Origin: Candidatus Staskawiczbacteria bacterium
Lineage (GTDB): Bacteria > Patescibacteriota > Minisyncoccia > Minisyncoccales > Staskawiczbacteraceae
Assembly (NCBI GenBank): GCA_903885445.1
Contig: CAISIO010000044.1
Location: 1-52,707, forward strand
Length of the DNA stretch: 52,707 nucleotides
Direction: 5' to 3'
The first letter of the stretch is position 1; every line of letters begins with the position of its first letter. The translations under genes were made by a program, and so were the position numbers. Under the pieces are notes generated by a model. That model was not told the DNA's origin and did no database searches. It saw only the letters and a program-made list of their open reading frames with translations. Of the stretch, positions 2,707-40,145 are shown in pieces.

Positions 2707-3984
2707 ATGTGGTACGAAAAAATATTATTTCTATTTAAAAACAAAGAACTTAGAAACAAATTTCTGTTTGTTATTTTTCTTTTCGTCGTTTTTAGATTGG
2801 CGGCAAATGTGCCAATTCCGGGAATTGGCGTTGAAAATTTAAGAAAGTTTTTTGACCAAAACCAGGCTTTTGGTTTGTTAAATTTGTTTACGGGAGGCGC
2901 TTTGAGCAACTTCTCAATTGTCTTGCTCGGACTTGGGCCATATATTACAGCTACAATTATTTTGCAACTTTTAACTATGATTTTTCCGGGTTTGGAAAAG
3001 CTTTACAAAGAGGAGGGAGAGTCTGGCAGGCAGAAATTTAATCAATACTCAAGATTGCTTACTATTCCATTGGCCGCATTTGAGGGCTATGGAATGCTAA
3101 CGGTATTCGCCCGTCAGGGAATTATCTCCGGGCTTTCTTTTCCGGTTATGATATCAGCCATTTTCACGATTACAGCCGGAGCAATGTTTTTAATGTGGAT
3201 TGGAGAAATAATTTCCGAGCAGGGAATGGGCAACGGAATATCGCTTTTGATTTTTGCCGGTATTGTGGCAAGAATGCCAATTAATATTTTCCAGACATTT
3301 GTCACATTCAATGCATCGCAAATCCCGGCGTATTTAGCATTCGTTGTGCTTTCGGTGGTTATAATTGCCGGAGTTGTTTTAATTACGGAAGCCCGCAGAA
3401 ATATTCCAGTTTCCTACGCAAAAAGAGTGAGGGGAATGAAAATGTATGGCGGAGGTTCAACTTATTTACCTTTAAGCGTTAACCCGGCGGGAGTCATGCC
3501 GATTATTTTCGCGTTATCCATACTTTTATTCCCGGGAATGATTGCTAGTTATTTTGGCACATACGCAGGCATGGTTGGAGTTGTGGCCACAAACATAGGG
3601 ACATTTTTCAATAATATTTGGGTGCACGGAGTTTTGTATTTCTTGCTTGTTATTCTTTTTACATATTTCTATACAGCAGTTACTTTTGACCCGAAAACAA
3701 TCGCTGAAAACTTACAAAAAATGGGCGGGTTCGTGCCCGGGGTAAGGCCAGGGCAATCAACTTCTATTTTTGTAAAACACATTTTGAACAGGGTTTTATT
3801 TACCGGAGCTGTATTTTTGGGACTTATTGCCATATTGCCATCCATTGTCGCCGGAGTAACAGGAGTTACGGGATTTACGTTCTTGGTTGGAGGCACATCT
3901 TTGTTAATCGTTGTCAGCGTAGTTTTGGACACAGTAAGGCAAATCAATGCCCAGCTCCAGATGCGCGAATACGAAACTTTCTAA
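2707..3984 (+). CDS. secY: preprotein translocase subunit SecY
   Basis: 425 aa polytopic membrane protein; LNLFTGGALSNFSIVLLGLGPYITATIILQLL motif; sits after rplO. Confidence 0.95.
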   Translation: MWYEKILFLFKNKELRNKFLFVIFLFVVFRLAANVPIPGIGVENLRKFFDQNQAFGLLNLFTGGALSNFSIVLLGLGPYITATIILQLLTMIFPGLEKLYKEEGESGRQKFNQYSRLLTIPLAAFEGYGMLTVFARQGIISGLSFPVMISAIFTITAGAMFLMWIGEIISEQGMGNGISLLIFAGIVARMPINIFQTFVTFNASQIPAYLAFVVLSVVIIAGVVLITEARRNIPVSYAKRVRGMKMYGGGSTYLPLSVNPAGVMPIIFALSILLFPGMIASYFGTYAGMVGVVATNIGTFFNNIWVHGVLYFLLVILFTYFYTAVTFDPKTIAENLQKMGGFVPGVRPGQSTSIFVKHILNRVLFTGAVFLGLIAILPSIVAGVTGVTGFTFLVGGTSLLIVVSVVLDTVRQINAQLQMREYETF

Positions 3985-4021: not shown

Positions 4022-4033
4022 ATTTGCTAAGGG

Positions 4034-4064
4034 TTGACATTTGGTCAGAAAGATTTATTATTAT
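4034..4064 (+). promoter_or_regulatory. sigma70-like promoter of GC-rich cassette A
   Basis: TTGACA at 4034-4039 and TATTAT at 4059-4064 (19-nt spacer; ATTATT at 17 nt). GC content rises just downstream. Confidence 0.45.
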
Positions 4065-4121
4065 ATCAACACGCAGGTTTCGTTTTTTTGACAACCGCAA
4101 CCCCTTTCGTGAGGCTAAACC

Positions 4122-4640
4122 ATGAGGCTCAACCGAATCTCGGTATTGTTTATTCTTGTAGCCGTAGGCGTCACTCTTCTGTCTGGCGGGCGAATTCAGC
4201 GCTGGGTCGCTGAAGAAGGAGTGATGGCTCAACCGGTAGCTTTGAGCGCCACTAGTACCATCCTCGCAATGGATGGACTCGATGGCAACAGTACAGTGTG
4301 CTATATCCTGACGAAGGAAACCCGGGAGAAGAACGAGTCCGGGTGGATATGGGAGTTTCGTACCTTGGAGAGCGGCAAGGTAAAGTCCGTCTTCATCAAC
4401 CATAGCCAGTTTATGGACAAGAGCCTGCAGAAGAAGCTCGAATCCCTCGGAATTGGTTATGAAAAGGGCATGCTGGGCGGAGGTCTAGCTCCCTCCAAGA
4501 GCAAGTCTGAATTGCTGCCAGTTCCCGGAAGGAAGCTGCTGGCTTTCAAGGTTGGTTCTGACGGCAAGGCTACGACCATCGTAACTAGGCCAGACGGAAC
4601 AATCCGCCGACGTGGGGTTAATTTTGTTACCGCTAATTGA
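4122..4640 (+). CDS. hypothetical N-terminally membrane-anchored or secreted protein on GC-rich cassette A
   Basis: 172-aa ORF. GAGG at 4111-4114 lies 7 nt before the ATG. N-terminal hydrophobic helix RISVLFILVAVGVTLLSGG. G/C-rich codons unlike neighbours. No family recognised. Confidence 0.6.
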   Translation: MRLNRISVLFILVAVGVTLLSGGRIQRWVAEEGVMAQPVALSATSTILAMDGLDGNSTVCYILTKETREKNESGWIWEFRTLESGKVKSVFINHSQFMDKSLQKKLESLGIGYEKGMLGGGLAPSKSKSELLPVPGRKLLAFKVGSDGKATTIVTRPDGTIRRRGVNFVTAN

Positions 4641-4728
4641 TAGCGGCAGGTGCCAAATTCTTTCATCGGATGAGGCGCTCTTTTTTTTGGGAGTAAATTA
4701 TGATATACTTTTAAAATAATTAAAATTT

Positions 4729-13729: not shown

Positions 13730-14080
13730 ATGCGAAAGCTAAACAAAGGCAGAAAATTATCAAGGAGAATCGGGCCAAGGAACGCGCTGTTAAGGGTGCT
13801 GGTCAATAATTTTTTCTTGCACGAAAAAATAAAAACCACTGAGGCAAAAGCAAAAGAATTAAGGTCTATTGCCGAGAAAATGATTACAAAAGCCAAGAAT
13901 GTTGATTTGGCAAACCGCAGAATATTGGCAAGAGACTTAACTCCTAAAATGACAAAAAAAGTTATTGAGGAGATTGCCCCGAAATATTCAGATAGAATGG
14001 GCGGATACACGAGGATTATAAAATTGGGGCCGCGCCACACAGACGGAGCGCATATGGCTATAATTGAGCTTGTTAAATAA
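13730..14080 (+). CDS. rplQ: 50S ribosomal protein L17
   Basis: KLSRRIGPRNALLRVLVNNFFLHEKIKTTEAKAKELR. Confidence 0.95.
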   Translation: MRKLNKGRKLSRRIGPRNALLRVLVNNFFLHEKIKTTEAKAKELRSIAEKMITKAKNVDLANRRILARDLTPKMTKKVIEEIAPKYSDRMGGYTRIIKLGPRHTDGAHMAIIELVK

Positions 14081-14086
14081 AATAGC

Positions 14087-14461
14087 ATGAAAAAAGCAGT
14101 AGAAAAAATACAAAGGAAAATTATCACATTGGATGCGGAAAACAAACCCTTGGGCAGATTGGCTGTCGAGGTTGCTGTTTCGCTTCGCGGGAAAAACAAG
14201 CCCAGCTATGTTCCATATAAAGATATGGGAGACACTGTTATAGTGAAAAATATTGAAAAAATGATTTTTACCGGAAATAAACTGGAAAACAAAAATTATT
14301 TTCATTTCACAGGATACATAGGAAATTTGAAAAAAACAACCTTAAAAGAATTTTTAATTAAGAAGGGCCCTAAAGAAGTTTTAAGAACCGCAGTGATGGG
14401 GATGCTTTGCAAAAATAAATTACGAGCAAAACAAATTAAAAGGTTAAGATTTGAAAAGTAA
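14087..14461 (+). CDS. rplM: 50S ribosomal protein L13
   Basis: LGRLAVEVAVSLRGKNKPSYVPYKDMGDTVIVKN; precedes rpsI. Confidence 0.93.
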   Translation: MKKAVEKIQRKIITLDAENKPLGRLAVEVAVSLRGKNKPSYVPYKDMGDTVIVKNIEKMIFTGNKLENKNYFHFTGYIGNLKKTTLKEFLIKKGPKEVLRTAVMGMLCKNKLRAKQIKRLRFEK

Positions 14462-14462
14462 C

Positions 14463-15050
14463 ATGCCAGAGAAAAAAACAACAACCAAAAAAACAGTGAA
14501 AAAGCCGGAAGAAAAGCCAGCTATTGTTGAAGTTGCAGAAATAAAAGTAGAGATAAAGGCCCCGGTTTATGTTGCTCCACAGGATCCTCTGGAAAAAATT
14601 GAGGACGATAATATTTCAGAGGAAATTGCAAAGGCTATAAAAGAAACAGCCGGCAAGCCCGACAGGTATTTTGAAGCAATCGGAAGAAGGAAAACCGCTG
14701 TTGCAAGGGTAAGGCTTTACACGAAAGGCGACAAGGAATTTATTGTAAACGACCAGCCATACATAAAATATTTCCAGACAACAGAAGACCAGGAGTCCGC
14801 CGTTTGTTCAATGTAAAAAATGAAATGTTTAGATACGTTCAGGGTAACGGTTGTTGTGAAAGGCGGAGGACACAGGGCGCAAGCAGAGGCAATAAGGCAC
14901 GGAACAGCCAGGGTGTTGGTAGATTTCAATGCAAACTTTAGAAAGAGATTGAGAAAAGCAGGTTTCCTAACAAGAGACCCAAGGATGAGAGAAAGAAAGA
15001 AATTCGGACTAAAGAGAGCAAGGAAATCCCCGCAGTGGGCAAAGAGGTAA
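14463..15050 (+). CDS. rpsI: 30S ribosomal protein S9, interrupted by an in-frame TAA at 14814-14816 (two ORFs, same frame)
   Basis: N-part has [19 protein letters not shown]-part has [23 protein letters not shown]...[30 protein letters not shown]. Both ORFs are in one frame, reading ...CSM*KMKC.... YF-to-GGG spacing equals E. coli S9 if the stop counts as one residue. About 60-aa Lys/Glu-rich N-terminal extension. Confidence 0.85.
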
Positions 15051-15063
15051 AGAAATTAAAAAA

Positions 15064-15084
15064 GCCGGCGCAAGCCGGTTTTTT
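15064..15084 (+). terminator. intrinsic terminator after rpsI
   Basis: CCGGC-GCAA-GCCGG followed by TTTTTT. Confidence 0.7.
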
Positions 15085-15085
15085 G

Positions 15086-15113
15086 TTGACTTTTGAATTT
15101 GTTGGAGTAGATT
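15086..15113 (+). promoter_or_regulatory. sigma70-like promoter of GC-rich cassette B
   Basis: TTGACT 15086-15091, 16-nt spacer, TAGATT 15108-15113. Confidence 0.45.
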
Positions 15114-15162
15114 TAAATAAGAACCAAGCCAACCTGGTCTTGTCATTTTGAGGAGACAAACC

Positions 15163-15528
15163 ATGCCAGACAAGTATAGGAGCCGGTTTCGTCCTTTGGG
15201 GCTCTCGGGCACTCCGAGATGTCCGTATTGTGGCCAGCCGATGGTACCGTCAGATGACCATGGCAATTACGCCTGCTTTTGCCAAGGACTGAAGTACTTT
15301 GGCTCTGATAGCGTAGAGTTGAGAACGCCCCGGATTCGGCAGGTGGATACGGCGGGGATGACCAACGCGCAGAAGGCGAAAGTTGACCCGATACATCGGC
15401 TCCATTCTGCGCCAACTGCGGCGGAGCAGAAGCTCCTTGATCTTATGTTGAAGGGGCCTGGAGCTATGGATGACCCGGAGTACACCAAGGCACTTGAGGA
15501 TGTGGCGAAAGAGCGTGGTGGAGGCTGA
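15163..15528 (+). CDS. hypothetical small protein with putative zinc ribbon (cassette B, ORF1)
   Basis: GAGGAG 15150-15155 lies 7 nt before the ATG at 15163 (the ORF-track start 15148 is a TTG). CPYC-x14-CFC motif. 121 aa with G/C-rich codons. Confidence 0.55.
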   Translation: MPDKYRSRFRPLGLSGTPRCPYCGQPMVPSDDHGNYACFCQGLKYFGSDSVELRTPRIRQVDTAGMTNAQKAKVDPIHRLHSAPTAAEQKLLDLMLKGPGAMDDPEYTKALEDVAKERGGG

Positions 15529-15755
15529 TGGATTGGTCCCTTACCAATTTGGAGGAAACTATGCCAGATAACAAGCATTCTGGGTCGACACTTGCGTTGA
15601 CTTTGATCTCGCCTTCGTTGAACGACGAGCCACGCGAAGGGCAAAGGGTTAAACCTCTTGGCCAGAAGACTACAGCCAAGGGCTGGGTCAAAGGACTTTG
15701 TCGCCCTGCATCAAGGGCCAGCCGGCTCAAGAAGCTTGGTGGCGGACCCGTTTAA
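15528..15755 (+). CDS. hypothetical small basic protein (cassette B, ORF2)
   Basis: ATG overlaps the ORF1 stop (TGATG). Alternative start at 15561 sits behind GGAGG 15551-15555. Lys/Arg-rich C-terminus. A weak hairpin plus T7 follows at about 15757-15779. Confidence 0.45.
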   Translation: MDWSLTNLEETMPDNKHSGSTLALTLISPSLNDEPREGQRVKPLGQKTTAKGWVKGLCRPASRASRLKKLGGGPV

Positions 15756-15815
15756 CCACAGCGGGCTGTTTTTTTGCGGATTTGCACAAAATTTTTAAAG
15801 TGATAAAATGTTAGT

Positions 15816-16469
15816 ATGTTAAAAGAGTTGATTGACCAGTTTTATTTAGAGAACCAAAAAAATAAAGAGCAGACAAGATTTTATATAACAGACGCAGGGA
15901 AATGCCCGAGGGCTGTTTTTTTTAAGTTTAAAAATGCTCCGCGCGAGCCGATAGACGCAAGGATTATGCGCATATTTGAGCACGGAGAAAATATACACAG
16001 AAGTATTTTTAATATTTTGTACAGGTTGCGATTGGGAGTGGTCACGGAAATTCCTATTCCATCGCAGGAAATAATTTCCGGAAGGGCGGACGCAATTTTG
16101 TGTATTGGGAATGAAAATTATGTGCTTGATATAAAAAGCATGAACAGTATGATTTTCCGGAAACTTTTAGCTCCCAAAGAAGAAAATGTTTACCAAATAC
16201 AATTATATTTGCACTATTTTAATATCAAAAAAGGCATACTGCTTTACATTGATAAAGACCAGCAGGAAATGAAAGAGTTTTTTGTTGACTACGACGAAGC
16301 GCTTTGCAAATCGCTTTTGGATAAATTCTACGCGCTAAAAGACCAGGTTGAAAAAAATGTCTTGCCTTTACGCTTAGAAGATTACCCGCGCAATTGGCAG
16401 TGCAATTATTGCGCCTTTAAAAAAGTTTGTAAAACGGAACTATGGGAGAATTCTCTCGGACGAGAGTAA
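15816..16469 (+). CDS. Cas4/RecB-like PD-(D/E)xK nuclease with four-Cys cluster, stand-alone
   Basis: GRADAIL...VLDIKS (D...D-x-K) and QIQLYLHY (QxxxY). Cys30 (GKCPR) plus C-terminal CNYC-x5-C is the Cas4/AddB-type Fe-S arrangement. Confidence 0.7.
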   Translation: MLKELIDQFYLENQKNKEQTRFYITDAGKCPRAVFFKFKNAPREPIDARIMRIFEHGENIHRSIFNILYRLRLGVVTEIPIPSQEIISGRADAILCIGNENYVLDIKSMNSMIFRKLLAPKEENVYQIQLYLHYFNIKKGILLYIDKDQQEMKEFFVDYDEALCKSLLDKFYALKDQVEKNVLPLRLEDYPRNWQCNYCAFKKVCKTELWENSLGRE

Positions 16470-17531
16470 AATATTTCCGGTTAGAATATAGATTTTCCCG
16501 TCCTGTCGGTTAAAATATATCTCTGGGGATTTAACGTCGGGGTCTAAAGTTACGGTGTTGATATTCCCGCGGTAGTCGATCTCCGAAATTATAATTTCAT
16601 TTCCGGCCGTGAAAATTATATAGTCATTGTTGAGCCACAAGCAGTTGGCTATTTTTTCCGAAGATTTATAAAGCAGAATATTTTTTGAGCTTGATAAAAG
16701 CGGAAGCAGGGAAACGTAGATGGAGTTGTCGTTATAAAAAATTACGTTTTTATTATCCGGCGAAACTTTTAAATCTTTCAGTGCAGAATATGAATCGTCT
16801 AATTCTTTTGTGGTTGGATTTAAGCGCGATAAACCGCCGTTGTTGTAGACGAAAATGTCATTGGCTCCGGTAATTACTTTATAGGTTCCGGTTTTGATTA
16901 TTTTTAAAGGAGCCGCGGTTAGTTTGGCCGGGACGGCGGAAGGACTGGCTAAATCTGACCTATATAGGAGTCCGTCCGCGCCAAGCCATACAATAGTATT
17001 GTTCTGCTGTGTAAACGCGGCTAATTTTTTAATAATCGGAGTTGACTTTTGGGTGGAGGTTAGCGCGGAATTTTCCGGAACATTGGAGTAGTACAGGTTG
17101 CCGGTTTTTATTACAAATTTATCTTGATTCAAAAACGGCGATTGCGTCTGGTCAGCGATGGTTTGAAAATGGATATTTTTTTTAAATAAGAGCACGTTTT
17201 CTATTTTTGTAACCTGATTTTCCTTAACGGGAAGGGTTTTTAAATAATCATAGTAGCCGGTTTTTTTTACTAAAACCGCGTGGTCTTTCGGCAGCAAGCT
17301 TTGCACAAAAACCGAATTGGAGAATATTCCCGGTTTTTGAACCGCCTTTGAGTCAATAATTATTTGGTCGGCTGCCGGAAAGGTTCGTACATAAATACCT
17401 CCGGTTGCTGTAATTTTTACTTTTTCAAAATCAAATCGATCTCCCATTGAATAAAGCACTAAAACGGGAGCTATAACAAAAAAGCACACCACGCAAACAA
17501 GCAGTATTAACAGCCGAATTTGTTTGGTCAT
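16440..17531 (-). CDS. membrane-anchored PEGA-domain protein with beta-rich C-terminal region
   Basis: N-terminal TM helix, then GGIYVRTFPAADQIIIDSK...AVLVKKTGYYDYLKTLPV (PEGA-like). Its 3' end overlaps the convergent nuclease gene by 30 nt. Confidence 0.65.
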   Translation of the reverse strand: MTKQIRLLILLVCVVCFFVIAPVLVLYSMGDRFDFEKVKITATGGIYVRTFPAADQIIIDSKAVQKPGIFSNSVFVQSLLPKDHAVLVKKTGYYDYLKTLPVKENQVTKIENVLLFKKNIHFQTIADQTQSPFLNQDKFVIKTGNLYYSNVPENSALTSTQKSTPIIKKLAAFTQQNNTIVWLGADGLLYRSDLASPSAVPAKLTAAPLKIIKTGTYKVITGANDIFVYNNGGLSRLNPTTKELDDSYSALKDLKVSPDNKNVIFYNDNSIYVSLLPLLSSSKNILLYKSSEKIANCLWLNNDYIIFTAGNEIIISEIDYRGNINTVTLDPDVKSPEIYFNRQDGKIYILTGNILLSSERILP

Positions 17532-39663: not shown

Positions 39664-39678
39664 GTTGGCGTTGAAACA

Positions 39679-39707
39679 TTGACGCACATATTTTGATATG
39701 TTACTAT
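39679..39707 (+). promoter_or_regulatory. sigma70-like promoter of GC-rich cassette C
   Basis: TTGACG 39679-39684, 17-nt spacer, TACTAT 39702-39707. Confidence 0.5.
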
Positions 39708-39770
39708 ATAGCCGTGTTCAAGGCGATGTTTTTTTGTAAGGTAGTCAGCCCTTTTCGAGGAGACCTGATA

Positions 39771-40046
39771 ATGACGGATATGATGTCGGAAAAAGAGATT
39801 GAGAAATTGGTCATCGAAATCGTCGCTGACCAACTCAACATCGACAAGGACGAGATCAGCCGAGCGTCGCGCTTTGTCGATGACCTGAACATCGATCAAC
39901 TGGACGAGGTGGAGCTGGTGATGGAATTCGAGGACGAATTCGAACTTTCCATCCACAGCGATGAGAAGATACGGGAACTAGGAACAGTTGGGGCGGCCAT
40001 AGACTTCGTCAGAGACGAACTCAAAACTCAGGGCCGGCTGACCTAA
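39771..40046 (+). CDS. acyl-carrier-protein-fold protein lacking the phosphopantetheine-attachment serine (DSL -> DQL)
   Basis: GAGGAG 39757-39762 lies 8 nt before the ATG. FVDDLNIDQLDEVELVMEFEDEFELSIHSDEKIRELGTVGAAIDFV aligns to the ACP core L.ADSLD.VELVM..EEEF...I.D.........V.DAV.YI. The Gln codon CAA is at 39897-39899. 91 aa, very acidic. Confidence 0.7.
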   Translation: MTDMMSEKEIEKLVIEIVADQLNIDKDEISRASRFVDDLNIDQLDEVELVMEFEDEFELSIHSDEKIRELGTVGAAIDFVRDELKTQGRLT

Positions 40047-40069
40047 TAGAGAGCGCGCATTGCGTTGAT

Positions 40070-40104
40070 GCCTTGTTGCAATTTTTGTGGCGAGGCTTTT
40101 TTTT
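40070..40104 (+). terminator. intrinsic terminator of cassette C
   Basis: GCCTTG...CGAGGC hairpin followed by TTTTTTTT. An extended -10 (TGaTATAAT, about 40129-40137) for pduL follows. Confidence 0.55.
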
Positions 40105-40145
40105 GCACTTTTTTGTTTTTTTGTTAGGTGATATAATAATTAAAT

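What the first reader, a model, noticed from the sequence alone, without database searches (positions are those of the whole stretch)
15086..15780. Cassette B: GC-rich bicistronic unit (Zn-ribbon protein plus small basic protein) behind rpsI
Seen: this is the most GC-rich segment of the window. A TTGACT-16-TAGATT promoter and a GAGGAG SD precede ORF1 (121 aa from 15163). ORF1 carries CPYC-x14-CFC, a plausible zinc ribbon, followed by an Ala/Lys/Asp-rich helical-looking tail. ORF2 overlaps the ORF1 stop (TGATG), and a second candidate start at 15561 lies behind GGAGG. The two candidate starts share ATGCCAGAYAA (MPDK.. and MPDN..). ORF2 is short (64-75 aa) and Lys/Arg-rich at its C-terminus. The pairing of a small coupled Zn-ribbon protein with a basic protein is reminiscent of toxin-antitoxin or regulator pairs. 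I recognise no family. A stand-alone Cas4-like nuclease lies immediately downstream under its own promoter.
Basis: partly seen in the sequence, partly recalled or inferred. Interest (0 to 1): 0.65.

Follow-up and report, generated by a model that had tools for sequence, protein, structure and literature searches.

The report
Orphan-family zinc-ribbon gene beside solo-Cas4
The GC-rich stretch behind rpsI is a real, self-contained accessory gene unit in a tiny uncultured (CPR) bacterium: its first gene belongs to an undescribed family of small zinc-binding proteins that repeatedly sits right in front of a stand-alone Cas4-like nuclease, while the second "gene" has no relatives and no predicted fold, so this is not a toxin-antitoxin pair.

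Summary
Window 15086-15780 is the most GC-rich stretch of a 39.7 % GC Candidatus Staskawiczbacteria (CPR) contig.

**ORF1 (15163-15528) is a genuine gene.**
- An exhaustive HMMER search found 58 relatives, the best 59 % identical.
- The family is under purifying selection (dN/dS 0.1-0.3).
- It has a confident AlphaFold model: a C4 zinc ribbon plus a helical domain with no PDB or viral-library match.
- No Pfam, NCBIfam, PHROG or PADLOC model covers it.

**Where the family sits.**
- In 9 distinct assemblies, window included, plus one truncated copy, the homologue lies in the same slot, directly upstream of the conserved solo-Cas4-like gene.
- Other cargo (restriction-modification, AIPR) inserts between rpsI and it.
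- About 20 other copies lie elsewhere in CPR genomes, and at least one lies on an archaeal contig. Several are near restriction-modification, AbiE, integrase or Mu-Gam genes.
- The rpsI-cas4 gap is empty in some relatives and holds unrelated genes in others, so it is an insertion hot spot.

**ORF2 (15528/15561-15755).** It has no homologue, is absent from all homologous loci and has no predicted fold. Its long-form start is lost in a sister allele.

The toxin-antitoxin reading is not supported. Function remains inferred. Interest is moderate.

The parts
15059..15084 (+). Intrinsic terminator of rpsI. It marks the left border of the variable slot.
   Evidence: An 11-bp stem plus T-run. Loose ends of other strains' contigs begin at 15050-15100.
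15086..15113 (+). Sigma-70-like promoter of the cassette (TTGACT-16-TAGATT).
   Evidence: It matches 9 of 12 consensus positions. This is a consensus match only; transcription was not tested because no RNA run is available.
15150..15155 (+). Shine-Dalgarno sequence GAGGAG for ORF1.
   Evidence: Read directly from the sequence. The other two GC-rich cassettes of the window have the same layout.
15163..15528 (+). ORF1, 121 aa. It has a C4 zinc ribbon (C20, C23, C38, C40, with DDHG between the knuckles), then a linker, then a 60-residue helical domain. It belongs to an uncurated CPR/DPANN protein family.
   Evidence: - 58 homologues at E<=1e-3.
- 15 of 17 family-conserved residues are kept.
- dN/dS in the family is 0.10-0.30.
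- The AlphaFold model has pLDDT 83.4.
- Codon-position GC is 0.61/0.48/0.61.
15528..15755 (+). ORF2 candidate, 75 aa, or 64 aa from the ATG at 15561 behind GGAGG. It is basic, an orphan, and has no predicted fold. Its status as a gene is unresolved.
   Evidence: - No homologue was found.
- The single-sequence AlphaFold model has pTM 0.14 and no secondary structure.
- Codon-position GC is flat.
- Its frame scores best of six with a codon table trained on GC-rich ORF1 homologues, and an ORF of this length is rare in shuffles.
- Allele L040 has a 1-nt insertion that removes the ATG at 15528.
15747..15775 (+). Terminator-like hairpin plus T7 run that closes the cassette. The ORF2 stop codon lies in its stem.
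   Evidence: Detected. It is the positional equivalent of the terminator that follows ORF1 homologues in 8 other loci.
15781..15809 (+). Extended -10 promoter of the solo-Cas4-like gene (native sequence).
   Evidence: Detected. It is homologous to the promoter directly behind the rpsI terminator in empty-site relatives L009 and L023.
15816..16469 (+). Stand-alone Cas4-like PD-(D/E)xK Fe-S nuclease. It is the conserved right-hand neighbour.
   Evidence: - PHROG 1706 matches at 4.5e-32 and a PADLOC Cas4 model at 2e-15. TIGR00372 scores 55 bits, below its 65-bit cut-off.
- It is 77-96 % identical across Staskawiczbacteria.

Best explanation
The segment 15086-15780 is a self-contained accessory expression unit with its own promoter, strong ribosome-binding site, ORF1 and terminator. 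It sits in a variable slot between the rpsI terminator and the promoter of a conserved stand-alone Cas4-like nuclease gene, in a lake-water Candidatus Staskawiczbacteria (CPR/Patescibacteria) genome.

**Shown.**
- ORF1 is a real, selected protein-coding gene. It belongs to an undescribed family of roughly 100-140-aa proteins. The family pattern is YWDxTD, then CPxCG-x7-DDHGRF-x-CxC (a four-Cys zinc ribbon), then IPQVDT, then IPPINRLHxxPTxAE, then a C-terminal helical domain.
- The family occurs in CPR bacteria, and at least one member lies on an archaeal contig that encodes a TATA-binding protein.
- In Staskawiczbacteria the family member repeatedly occupies the position immediately upstream of solo-cas4, while other cargo is stacked between rpsI and it.
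- Related genomes have the slot empty or filled with unrelated genes.
- Co-occurring strains with a diverged rpsI carry an identical cassette. A mosaic allele also exists.

**Inferred.**
- The unit moves and is replaced by homologous recombination through the conserved flanking genes, not by an element-encoded recombinase.
- Its GC excess comes partly from amino-acid composition (first and second codon positions) and partly from a recently imported allele (GC3 of 0.61 against about 0.4 in host genes).
- The protein acts as a small, usually acidic, zinc-ribbon binding factor in the sphere of DNA defence and repair. It most plausibly modulates, or partners with, a nuclease such as the adjacent solo-Cas4. 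I give this functional step about 30 %.

**ORF2.** It is not part of a conserved module. It is either a young lineage-specific basic peptide or an untranslated 3' region, roughly even odds. The confidence value refers to the structural and evolutionary statement, not to the molecular function.
For: **ORF1 is a real gene.**
- Exhaustive phmmer found 58 hits at E<=1e-3 and 26 at E<=1e-10.
- A profile search found 59 proteins down to E=5e-45.
- The conserved Cys, Asp, His and Gly columns are seen in both alignments.
- dN/dS is 0.10-0.30 in seven of the eight pairs with an estimable dS, and 0.301 in the eighth.
- AlphaFold gives pLDDT 83.4 and pTM 0.60.

**The family is uncurated.**
- Only generic zinc-ribbon noise appears in Pfam, PHROGs, NCBIfam and PADLOC.
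- PDB sequence and fold searches find nothing better than E=0.06 and 0.6. The viral structure library gives nothing better than E=1.0.

**Same slot next to cas4.** This arrangement is seen in L029/30, L035, L038, L042, L044/45, L051, L069 and L072, with a truncated copy in L084. Restriction-modification or AIPR cargo lies between rpsI and the homologue in L044 and L069.

**Variable slot.** The rpsI-to-cas4 gap is 65-80 nt in L009 and L023. In six other relatives it is 176-2833 nt: no credible gene in L015, unrelated ORFs in the other five.

**Recent exchange between strains.**
- L003 has 16 synonymous differences in rpsI 14879-14978, then none across 15000-15734.
- Logan contigs show many flanks that are 80-90 % identical, but only one version of the cassette.
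- L040 is a mosaic allele.

**Composition.** Codon-position GC values are.

**Neighbours elsewhere.** They include restriction-modification genes, AbiEi/AbiEii, AIPR, an integrase, Mu Gam and a TATA-binding protein.
Against: - No transcription or translation data exist for this organism.
- The link between ORF1 and cas4 may be one ancestral placement inherited vertically. ORF1 and Cas4 pairwise identities correlate only weakly (r=0.22, Mantel p=0.13). The family tree is too poorly resolved to tell single from repeated arrivals.
- Eight relatives keep cas4 without any ORF1 homologue, and about 20 homologues have no cas4 nearby. A physical partnership is therefore not obligatory.
- Each gene has its own promoter and terminator, so they are not co-transcribed.
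- The window's copy lacks the family's N-terminal YWDxTD motif and is basic (pI 8.4), whereas the family median is 5.1.
- One co-occurring allele carries a stop at Cys38. This could mean the gene is dispensable, or it could be a contig error.
- No recombination junction or donor was identified.
Confidence: 0.6

Rival explanations
1. ORF1 and ORF2 form a translationally coupled two-gene module: a toxin-antitoxin pair, or a regulator with its partner.
For: - ORF1's stop and ORF2's start overlap (TGATG). A second start lies behind GGAGG. ORF2 is small and basic.
- ORF2's frame scores best of six, and an ORF of its length is rare in shuffles.
- A few homologous loci also carry a tightly following small ORF (L041, L050, L057).
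Against: - ORF2 has no homologue anywhere that was searched.
- The downstream small ORFs in other loci are unrelated to ORF2 and to each other, apart from the near-identical pair L039/L043.
- Nine loci run from the ORF1 stop straight to a terminator.
- No toxin-antitoxin or defence HMM hits either protein.
- ORF2 has no predicted fold.
- The overlapping ATG is destroyed in allele L040.
Confidence: 0.05
2. ORF1 is an old, vertically inherited functional partner of the solo-Cas4-like nuclease, such as an accessory subunit or inhibitor. It is not hot-spot cargo, and the adjacency reflects function.
For: - Ten loci keep the homologue 80-190 nt upstream of cas4 (287 nt in the window). This holds even when 2-4 kb of other cargo is inserted between rpsI and it.
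- The window's copy groups with other copies from the same slot: L042, L035, L044 and L041.
- Solo-Cas4 is over-represented in CPR and DPANN genomes and its role is unknown (PMC5704561, read). The ORF1 family likewise occurs in CPR genomes, with at least one copy on an archaeal contig.
Against: - All adjacent cases share one synteny block, so they may count as a single evolutionary event.
- Eight relatives have cas4 without ORF1.
- About 20 homologues have no cas4 within 4-5 kb.
- The two genes are separate transcription units.
- The co-divergence signal is weak.
Confidence: 0.2
3. The GC-rich block is a structured non-coding RNA, and the ORFs are by-products of its GC content.
For: - GC-rich islands in AT-rich genomes are often RNA genes.
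- Long ORFs are frequent in this block on both strands.
- The longest frame is not significant against shuffles.
Against: - No Rfam family matches at E<=1 within the cassette.
- Folding z-scores are -1.75 and -0.98, neither significant.
- ORF1 has protein-level homologues that keep conserved residues through synonymous changes, with low dN/dS.
Confidence: 0.02
4. The segment is an assembly chimera or contamination from a GC-richer organism.
For: - Composition differs sharply from the flanks.
- Depth over the cassette (3-5) is lower than the summed depth over the flanks.
Against: - Eight independent ENA contigs from several samples, plus Logan contigs, cross both junctions with 0-1 differences.
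- Homologues lie in the same slot in other published MAGs.
- The lower depth is explained by several strains sharing the flanks but not the cassette.
Confidence: 0.01

Closest known systems
Single-gene accessory islets in chromosomal integration hot spots between core genes, including phage-style 'moron' units (promoter-gene-terminator)
   Same: - It is a self-contained promoter, ribosome-binding site, ORF and terminator unit, inserted between a housekeeping terminator and the next gene's promoter.
- Close relatives show presence/absence and content polymorphism at the site.
- Composition is atypical for the host.
- Co-occurring strains with diverged flanks carry an identical copy.
   Different: - It is not inside a prophage.
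- No recombinase, att site or significant flanking repeat was found.
- The family member is retained at this slot across many species, so it behaves more like a long-term resident than a random insertion.
Small stand-alone zinc-ribbon proteins: generic Zn_ribbon Pfam clans, the TFS/RPB9-type ribbon, the NudC ribbon, and Lar-like restriction-alleviation proteins
   Same: - It has a CPxCG ... CxC four-Cys knuckle pair, predicted as a beta-ribbon.
- Weak, sub-threshold hits go to several ribbon models.
   Different: - No model reaches its cut-off.
- The conserved DDHGRF tip, the IPQVDT/IPPINRLH linker and the 60-residue helical C-terminal domain have no counterpart in Pfam, the PDB or BFVD.
Solo-Cas4 of CPR and DPANN genomes (Hudaiberdiev et al. 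2017, PMC5704561), as the conserved neighbour
   Same: The adjacent 217-aa protein has the Cas4-type PD-(D/E)xK core and the Cys pattern. No cas1, cas2 or CRISPR array is nearby. It is strongly conserved in the lineage.
   Different: - It scores below the TIGR00372 cut-off (55 against 65 bits).
- The passages of that paper read here mention no zinc-ribbon neighbour. The paper was not read in full.
Type II toxin-antitoxin pairs
   Same: Two small, overlapping ORFs on one transcript, one of them basic.
   Different: There is no conserved pairing, no toxin or antitoxin domain, and the second ORF is an orphan without a predicted fold.

Membership tests
Type II toxin-antitoxin module | Two adjacent genes conserved together as a pair across genomes | tested here: not met
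   ORF2 is absent from all roughly 60 loci that carry ORF1 homologues. Downstream small ORFs, where present, are unrelated to it.
Type II toxin-antitoxin module | At least one partner matches a known toxin or antitoxin domain | tested here: not met
   Pfam, NCBIfam, PHROGs and PADLOC give no hit at E<=0.01 for ORF1. ORF2 has no hit at all.
Type II toxin-antitoxin module | Toxicity of one partner and rescue by the other | not testable with these tools
   This needs expression in a laboratory strain.
Zinc-ribbon fold (superfamily level) | Two Cys knuckles (CxxC ... CxC/CxxC) on a beta-hairpin pair | tested here: met
   C38 is invariant and C20, C23 and C40 are at least 90 % conserved among 48 sequences. 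Short strands are predicted at 36-38 and 44-46 around the second knuckle, with pLDDT 83-87 for residues 21-40. Metal binding itself was not tested.
New CPR/DPANN 'DDHGRF' small-protein family (defined here) | Conserved columns P18, C20, C23, M27, D31, D32, H33, G34, R35, F36, C38, C40, Q60, K71, R79, P84, T85, E88 | tested here: met
   The window's ORF1 keeps all of these except R35N and F36Y. It lacks the N-terminal YWDxTD motif.
Lar-like restriction alleviation protein (phrog_6422) | Significant match to the family profile | tested here: not met
   Only 1 of 30 members matched, at E=0.034. The window's protein did not match.
Moron-like or hot-spot accessory cassette | Own promoter and terminator, inserted between two otherwise adjacent host genes | tested here: met
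   Consensus promoter and terminator matches are present. Empty sites in L009 and L023 join the rpsI terminator directly to the cas4 promoter. Promoter activity itself was not tested.
Moron-like or hot-spot accessory cassette | Location within a prophage or other mobile element | tested here: not met
   The flanks are ribosomal-protein genes and murA/mreB housekeeping genes. The family is absent from IMG/VR, INPHARED phages and PLSDB plasmids.
Cas4 (TIGR00372/PF01930), for the neighbour gene | Profile score above the curated cut-off | tested here: not met
   TIGR00372 scores 55.1 against a cut-off of 65. PF01930 scores 21.4 against 22.7. PHROG 1706 matches at 4.5e-32 and PADLOC Cas4 at 2e-15. 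It is best called Cas4-like or solo-Cas4-like.
Rfam structured RNA | Covariance-model match or significant folding energy | tested here: not met
   No hit lies within the cassette. Folding z-scores are -1.75 and -0.98.

The most novel reading that the evidence does not exclude
The 'DDHGRF' zinc-ribbon proteins may be a dedicated partner, regulator or inhibitor of the enigmatic solo-Cas4 nucleases of ultra-small symbionts (CPR bacteria, and perhaps DPANN archaea).
- Their C-terminal helical surface would evolve fast: 12 non-synonymous against 8 synonymous codon changes between two co-occurring alleles.
- The cause would be an arms race or partner-matching interaction.
- If so, this small gene would give the first experimental handle on what solo-Cas4 does in organisms that lack CRISPR.
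Probability: 0.15. Interest if true: 0.65.

Novelty: new variant of a known kind. Interest (0 to 1): 0.38.

Why it matters
**What it adds.**
- It defines a protein family that no curated database describes. The family has more than 60 clusters (representatives at 50-90 % identity), occurs in CPR bacteria and on at least one archaeal contig, and has a confident predicted structure whose C-terminal domain has no known analogue.
- It ties that family by position to solo-Cas4, a nuclease known to be over-represented in small-genome symbionts and still without a function.
- It documents, for one concrete slot (rpsI to cas4), how streamlined CPR genomes take up and exchange single-gene units without any visible mobility gene.

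**What it does not add.** There is no new mechanism and no toxin-antitoxin system. Half of the proposed 'bicistron' is probably not a conserved gene.

Tried and rejected
**RNA.** Rfam with the E-value threshold on 14000-17000 and with gathering thresholds on the whole window gave nothing in the cassette. Folding of the whole cassette and of the ORF2 part was not significant.

**Word-index protein searches.** ORF1 and ORF2 each found only themselves. Only the exhaustive search found the family.

**Curated protein libraries.** Pfam, PHROGs, PADLOC and NCBIfam gave only sub-threshold generic zinc-ribbon hits.

**Structure.**
- PDB sequence-profile search: best E=0.06.
- Foldseek against the PDB and BFVD: best E=0.6 and 1.0.
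- AlphaFold of ORF2 gave no fold, but this was a single-sequence run and so is weak evidence.

**Mobile-element collections.** The IMG/VR scan, INPHARED tblastn and blastn, and PLSDB tblastn gave no match.

**Flanking repeats.** I tested whether the cassette's 3' end is a degenerate copy of the rpsI 3' end plus terminator (a possible att-like duplication). The local-alignment score was reached by 5.8 % and 1.6 % of shuffles, driven largely by T-runs. I did not accept it.

**Phylogeny.**
- In the family tree, only 1 of 29 inner branches is strongly supported, so single and multiple arrivals at the cas4 slot cannot be told apart.
- The mirror-tree test of ORF1 against Cas4 gave r=0.22, p=0.13.

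**Neighbour census.** A census of 36 neighbour proteins from other contexts found no recurrent partner beyond a general defence and mobile-element flavour.

**RNA-seq.** No runs are available.

Full report
**1. What is there.**

The window is a 39.7 % GC contig. Its ribosomal-protein genes are most like those of Candidatus Staskawiczbacteria, a lineage of Parcubacteria within the CPR/Patescibacteria. It comes from lake-water metagenomes.

The stretch 15151-15800 has the highest GC of the window: 0.58 in 200-nt windows and 0.51 in the 500-nt profile.
- the rpsI terminator at 15059-15084;
- TTGACT-16-TAGATT at 15086-13 of that span, that is 15086-15113;
- GAGGAG at 15150-15155;
- ORF1 at 15163-15528 (121 aa, CPYC-x14-CFC);
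- ORF2 from the TGATG overlap at 15528, or from 15561 behind GGAGG;
- a hairpin plus T7 run at 15747-15775;
- the extended -10 promoter and the Cas4-like gene at 15816-16469.

The two candidate starts share 14 of 16 nt.

**2. It is not an artefact.**
- Eight independent ENA contigs (L001-L008) carry the identical ORF1 in the same context and cover 14801-15940 with 0-2 differences. The exception is L003.
- Logan contigs from four runs also cross the junctions.
- L003 has 16 differences, all synonymous, all inside rpsI 14879-14978, and then none over about 750 nt of cassette.
- When contigs are laid at 80 % likeness or more, the flanks show many strain variants that are 80-90 % identical. The cassette exists in one version only. 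Loose ends of other strains begin at 15050-15100 and 15780-15803, which are the cassette borders.

So several related strains share rpsI and cas4. Only some carry this unit, and it has recently crossed strain boundaries.

**3. ORF1 is a real gene of an uncurated family.**

*Searches.*
- The word-index search found nothing but itself.
- The exhaustive HMMER search found 58 proteins at E<=1e-3 and 26 at E<=1e-10. The best is 59 % identical over residues 16-118.
- A profile search returned 59 more clusters, down to E=5e-45.

*Family consensus.* MGYWDATD..GG.GP.CP.CG..M.P.DDHGRF.CFC...IPQVDT.GM.DEEKA.IPPINRLH..PT.AE...L...GP.AMDDPEY..A..AL..ER.
- M27, D31 and C38 are invariant.
- P18, C20, C23, D32, H33, G34, R35, F36, C40, Q60, K71, R79, P84, T85 and E88 are at least 90 % conserved.
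- The window's protein keeps all of these except R35N and F36Y, but has a diverged N-terminus.

*Selection.* Pairwise dN/dS within the family is 0.10-0.30.

*Codon-position GC.* The window's gene has 0.61/0.48/0.61. Homologues have GC1 of about 0.6 and GC2 of about 0.47 nearly everywhere, but GC3 ranges from 0.16 to 0.67 in hosts of 0.30-0.46 GC. Part of the GC excess is therefore amino-acid composition. The rest, the high GC3, varies from copy to copy, as expected if copies differ in how long they have resided in AT-rich genomes.

*Structure.* AlphaFold with 48 sequences gives mean pLDDT 83.4 and pTM 0.60. It predicts a ribbon around the Cys pairs and a helical domain (residues 60-120) at pLDDT of about 97.

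*No curated model.* Neither Foldseek (PDB, BFVD) nor PDB profile search finds anything significant. Pfam, PHROGs, PADLOC and NCBIfam give only sub-threshold generic zinc-ribbon hits.

*Not viral or plasmid-borne.* The family is absent from IMG/VR, INPHARED phages and PLSDB plasmids.

*Charge.* Most members are acidic (median pI 5.1). The window's copy has pI 8.4.

**4. Genomic context of the family.**

*In Staskawiczbacteria.* The order rplQ-rplM-rpsI-[gap]-cas4-like-p363(-)-murA is conserved. The gap varies:
- 65 nt in L009 and 80 nt in L023, where the rpsI terminator abuts the cas4 promoter;
- 176 nt in L015;
- 757-2833 nt in L020, L013, L014, L017 and L021, holding unrelated genes such as a Fic-like protein and proteins that by eye resemble AIR synthases.

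*ORF1 homologues in this slot.* Homologues occupy it in L029/L030/L062, L035, L038, L042, L044/L045, L051, L069 and L072, with a truncated copy in L084. L041, L049 and L056 lie behind rpsI on contigs that end too early to show the downstream gene.
- Where extra cargo is present, it lies between rpsI and the homologue. L044 carries a D12 methyltransferase plus a 255-aa protein. L069 carries a methyltransferase plus an AIPR protein.
- The homologue itself stays 80-190 nt upstream of cas4.
- In each of these loci the ORF1 stop is followed by a terminator and then the conserved cas4 promoter.

*Other contexts.* About 20 further homologues lie elsewhere, with no recurrent neighbour. Neighbours include:
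- restriction-modification genes (L032, L036);
- AbiEi/AbiEii (L059);
- a tyrosine recombinase (L043);
- Mu Gam (L054);
- HD and NYN proteins (L053);
- a TATA-binding protein in L071, so that contig is archaeal.

*Phylogeny.* The family tree is poorly resolved. The window's copy groups (SH-aLRT 84) with the slot copies L042, L035, L044 and L041 and with three copies from elsewhere. ORF1 and Cas4 identities correlate only weakly (r=0.22, p=0.13).

**5. ORF2.**

*Against ORF2 being a conserved gene.*
- No homologue was found in the word-index search, in any fetched locus or in plasmids.
- The cassette DNA has no blastn match in the phage collection.
- Codon-position GC is flat, 0.53/0.52/0.56.
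- There is no predicted secondary structure, with pTM 0.14 from a single-sequence run.
- It is absent from all homologous loci, where the spacer is 83-187 nt against 287 nt here.
- In allele L040 a 1-nt insertion turns TGATGG into TGATTGG and removes the overlapping start.

*For ORF2 being translated.*
- Its frame scores best of six with a codon table from GC-rich ORF1 homologues (-4.08 against -4.22 for the next best).
- An ATG-started ORF of 64 aa or more arises in 1.9 % of shuffles, and one of 75 aa or more in 0.3 %.
- The 15561 start has a good GGAGG.
- The only variant seen in it (15722 C>T, run X5) is synonymous.

I leave ORF2 at roughly even odds of being translated. Either way it is lineage-specific.

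**6. Allele L040.**

A contig from the same lake series is 94.6 % identical over 523 nt. It is identical for the first 250 nt of ORF1 except TGC>TGA at Cys38. It then has 26 differences in 15414-15523, which amount to 8 synonymous and 12 non-synonymous codon changes. P84, T85 and E88 are preserved through synonymous changes.

This is a mosaic allele produced by recombination within the gene. The C-terminal helices differ mainly by charge changes. The stop codon may be real or a contig error.

**7. Interpretation.**

*Shown.* The segment is a real, selected, family-level conserved small zinc-ribbon gene in a variable slot beside solo-cas4. It has its own expression signals and has been exchanged between strains.

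*Inferred.*
- Mobility is by homologous recombination through the highly conserved flanks. rpsI's C-terminal part is 84-95 % identical and Cas4-like is 77-96 % identical across species. No recombinase or significant flanking repeat was seen.
- The function is a binding or modulating factor connected with DNA nucleases and defence. This rests on position next to solo-Cas4, repeated restriction-modification, Abi and Gam neighbours, acidity, and a fast-changing helical surface. That step is weak, at about 30 %.

Hudaiberdiev et al. (PMC5704561, read) report that solo-Cas4 is over-represented in CPR and DPANN genomes and that its function is unknown. That is why the association is worth testing.

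*Other readings.* The toxin-antitoxin reading fails its defining tests. The ncRNA and misassembly readings are excluded.

**8. Relation to earlier notes of this scan.**

Other agents described GC-rich, promoter-to-terminator single-gene cassettes in this genome as moron-like. My results for this cassette agree on layout and on slot polymorphism, which I tested independently. They add that this cassette's gene is a long-term resident family of that slot, not a one-off import from a distant phylum.

**9. Limits.**
- No RNA data were available.
- All function statements are inference.

Noticed in passing
window 14814-14816: rpsI carries an in-frame TAA; 14451-14816 and 14820-15050 are one frame. 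A 99.8 %-identical contig from the same lake (L002) reads AAA (Lys) there, and so do all Logan contigs laid at that position. The stop is therefore probably a consensus or assembly error, or a very recent variant, and not recoding.
   Followed up: partly
window 15816-16469 and loci L009-L084: The stand-alone Cas4-like protein is 77-96 % identical across Staskawiczbacteria species. Ribosomal protein L13 in those species is only 59-89 % identical, and the neighbouring 363-aa protein 34-72 %. This is unusually strong conservation for a gene of unknown role.
   Followed up: partly
L035:5915-5994, L038:5921-6000, L041:55-134, L029:5921-6000: Four loci with ORF1 homologues share a 5'-UTR motif, GCACyTGAAAAATTTA followed by a UCCGA-loop-UCGGA hairpin, upstream of the ribosome-binding site. 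No compensatory changes were seen, and the window's leader lacks it.
   Followed up: partly
window 4030-4690, 15086-15780, 39670-40110: The three GC-rich cassettes of the window share one layout. A host terminator is followed by a TTGAC(A/T/G) promoter, a leader of about 55 nt, 'ttt(c)GAGG(AG)' 7-8 nt before the ATG, the ORF and a T-run terminator.
   Followed up: no
L071 (Ga0272442_10006333) 3234-3584: A family member (35 % identical) lies 100 nt from a TATA-binding-protein gene, that is, on an archaeal contig (probably DPANN, 33 % GC). The family therefore crosses the bacteria/archaea boundary among small-genome symbionts.
   Followed up: partly
L040 (ERZ27313550 k141_224164) versus window 15414-15523: This is a mosaic ORF1 allele in the same lake. 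The 5' 250 nt are identical apart from a TGA at Cys38. The last 110 nt are about 24 % diverged, with many charge-changing replacements in the C-terminal helices.
   Followed up: yes
L013, L014, L017, L020, L021 (gap between rpsI and cas4): The same slot holds unrelated cargo in other species: a 235-aa Cys-rich protein, 377-388-aa proteins that by eye resemble AIR synthases, a small protein that resembles a signal peptidase, and a 376-aa protein that resembles Fic. These resemblances were judged by eye only. Most of this cargo is GC-richer than its host.
   Followed up: no
L073 (Ga0172364_10004724) 196-645: A 149-aa ORF of 62 % GC sits on a 34 % GC contig and carries only the family's zinc-ribbon half at its C-terminus. 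L075, L079, L084 and L086/87 also carry ribbon-only versions, so the two halves of the protein can occur separately.
   Followed up: no
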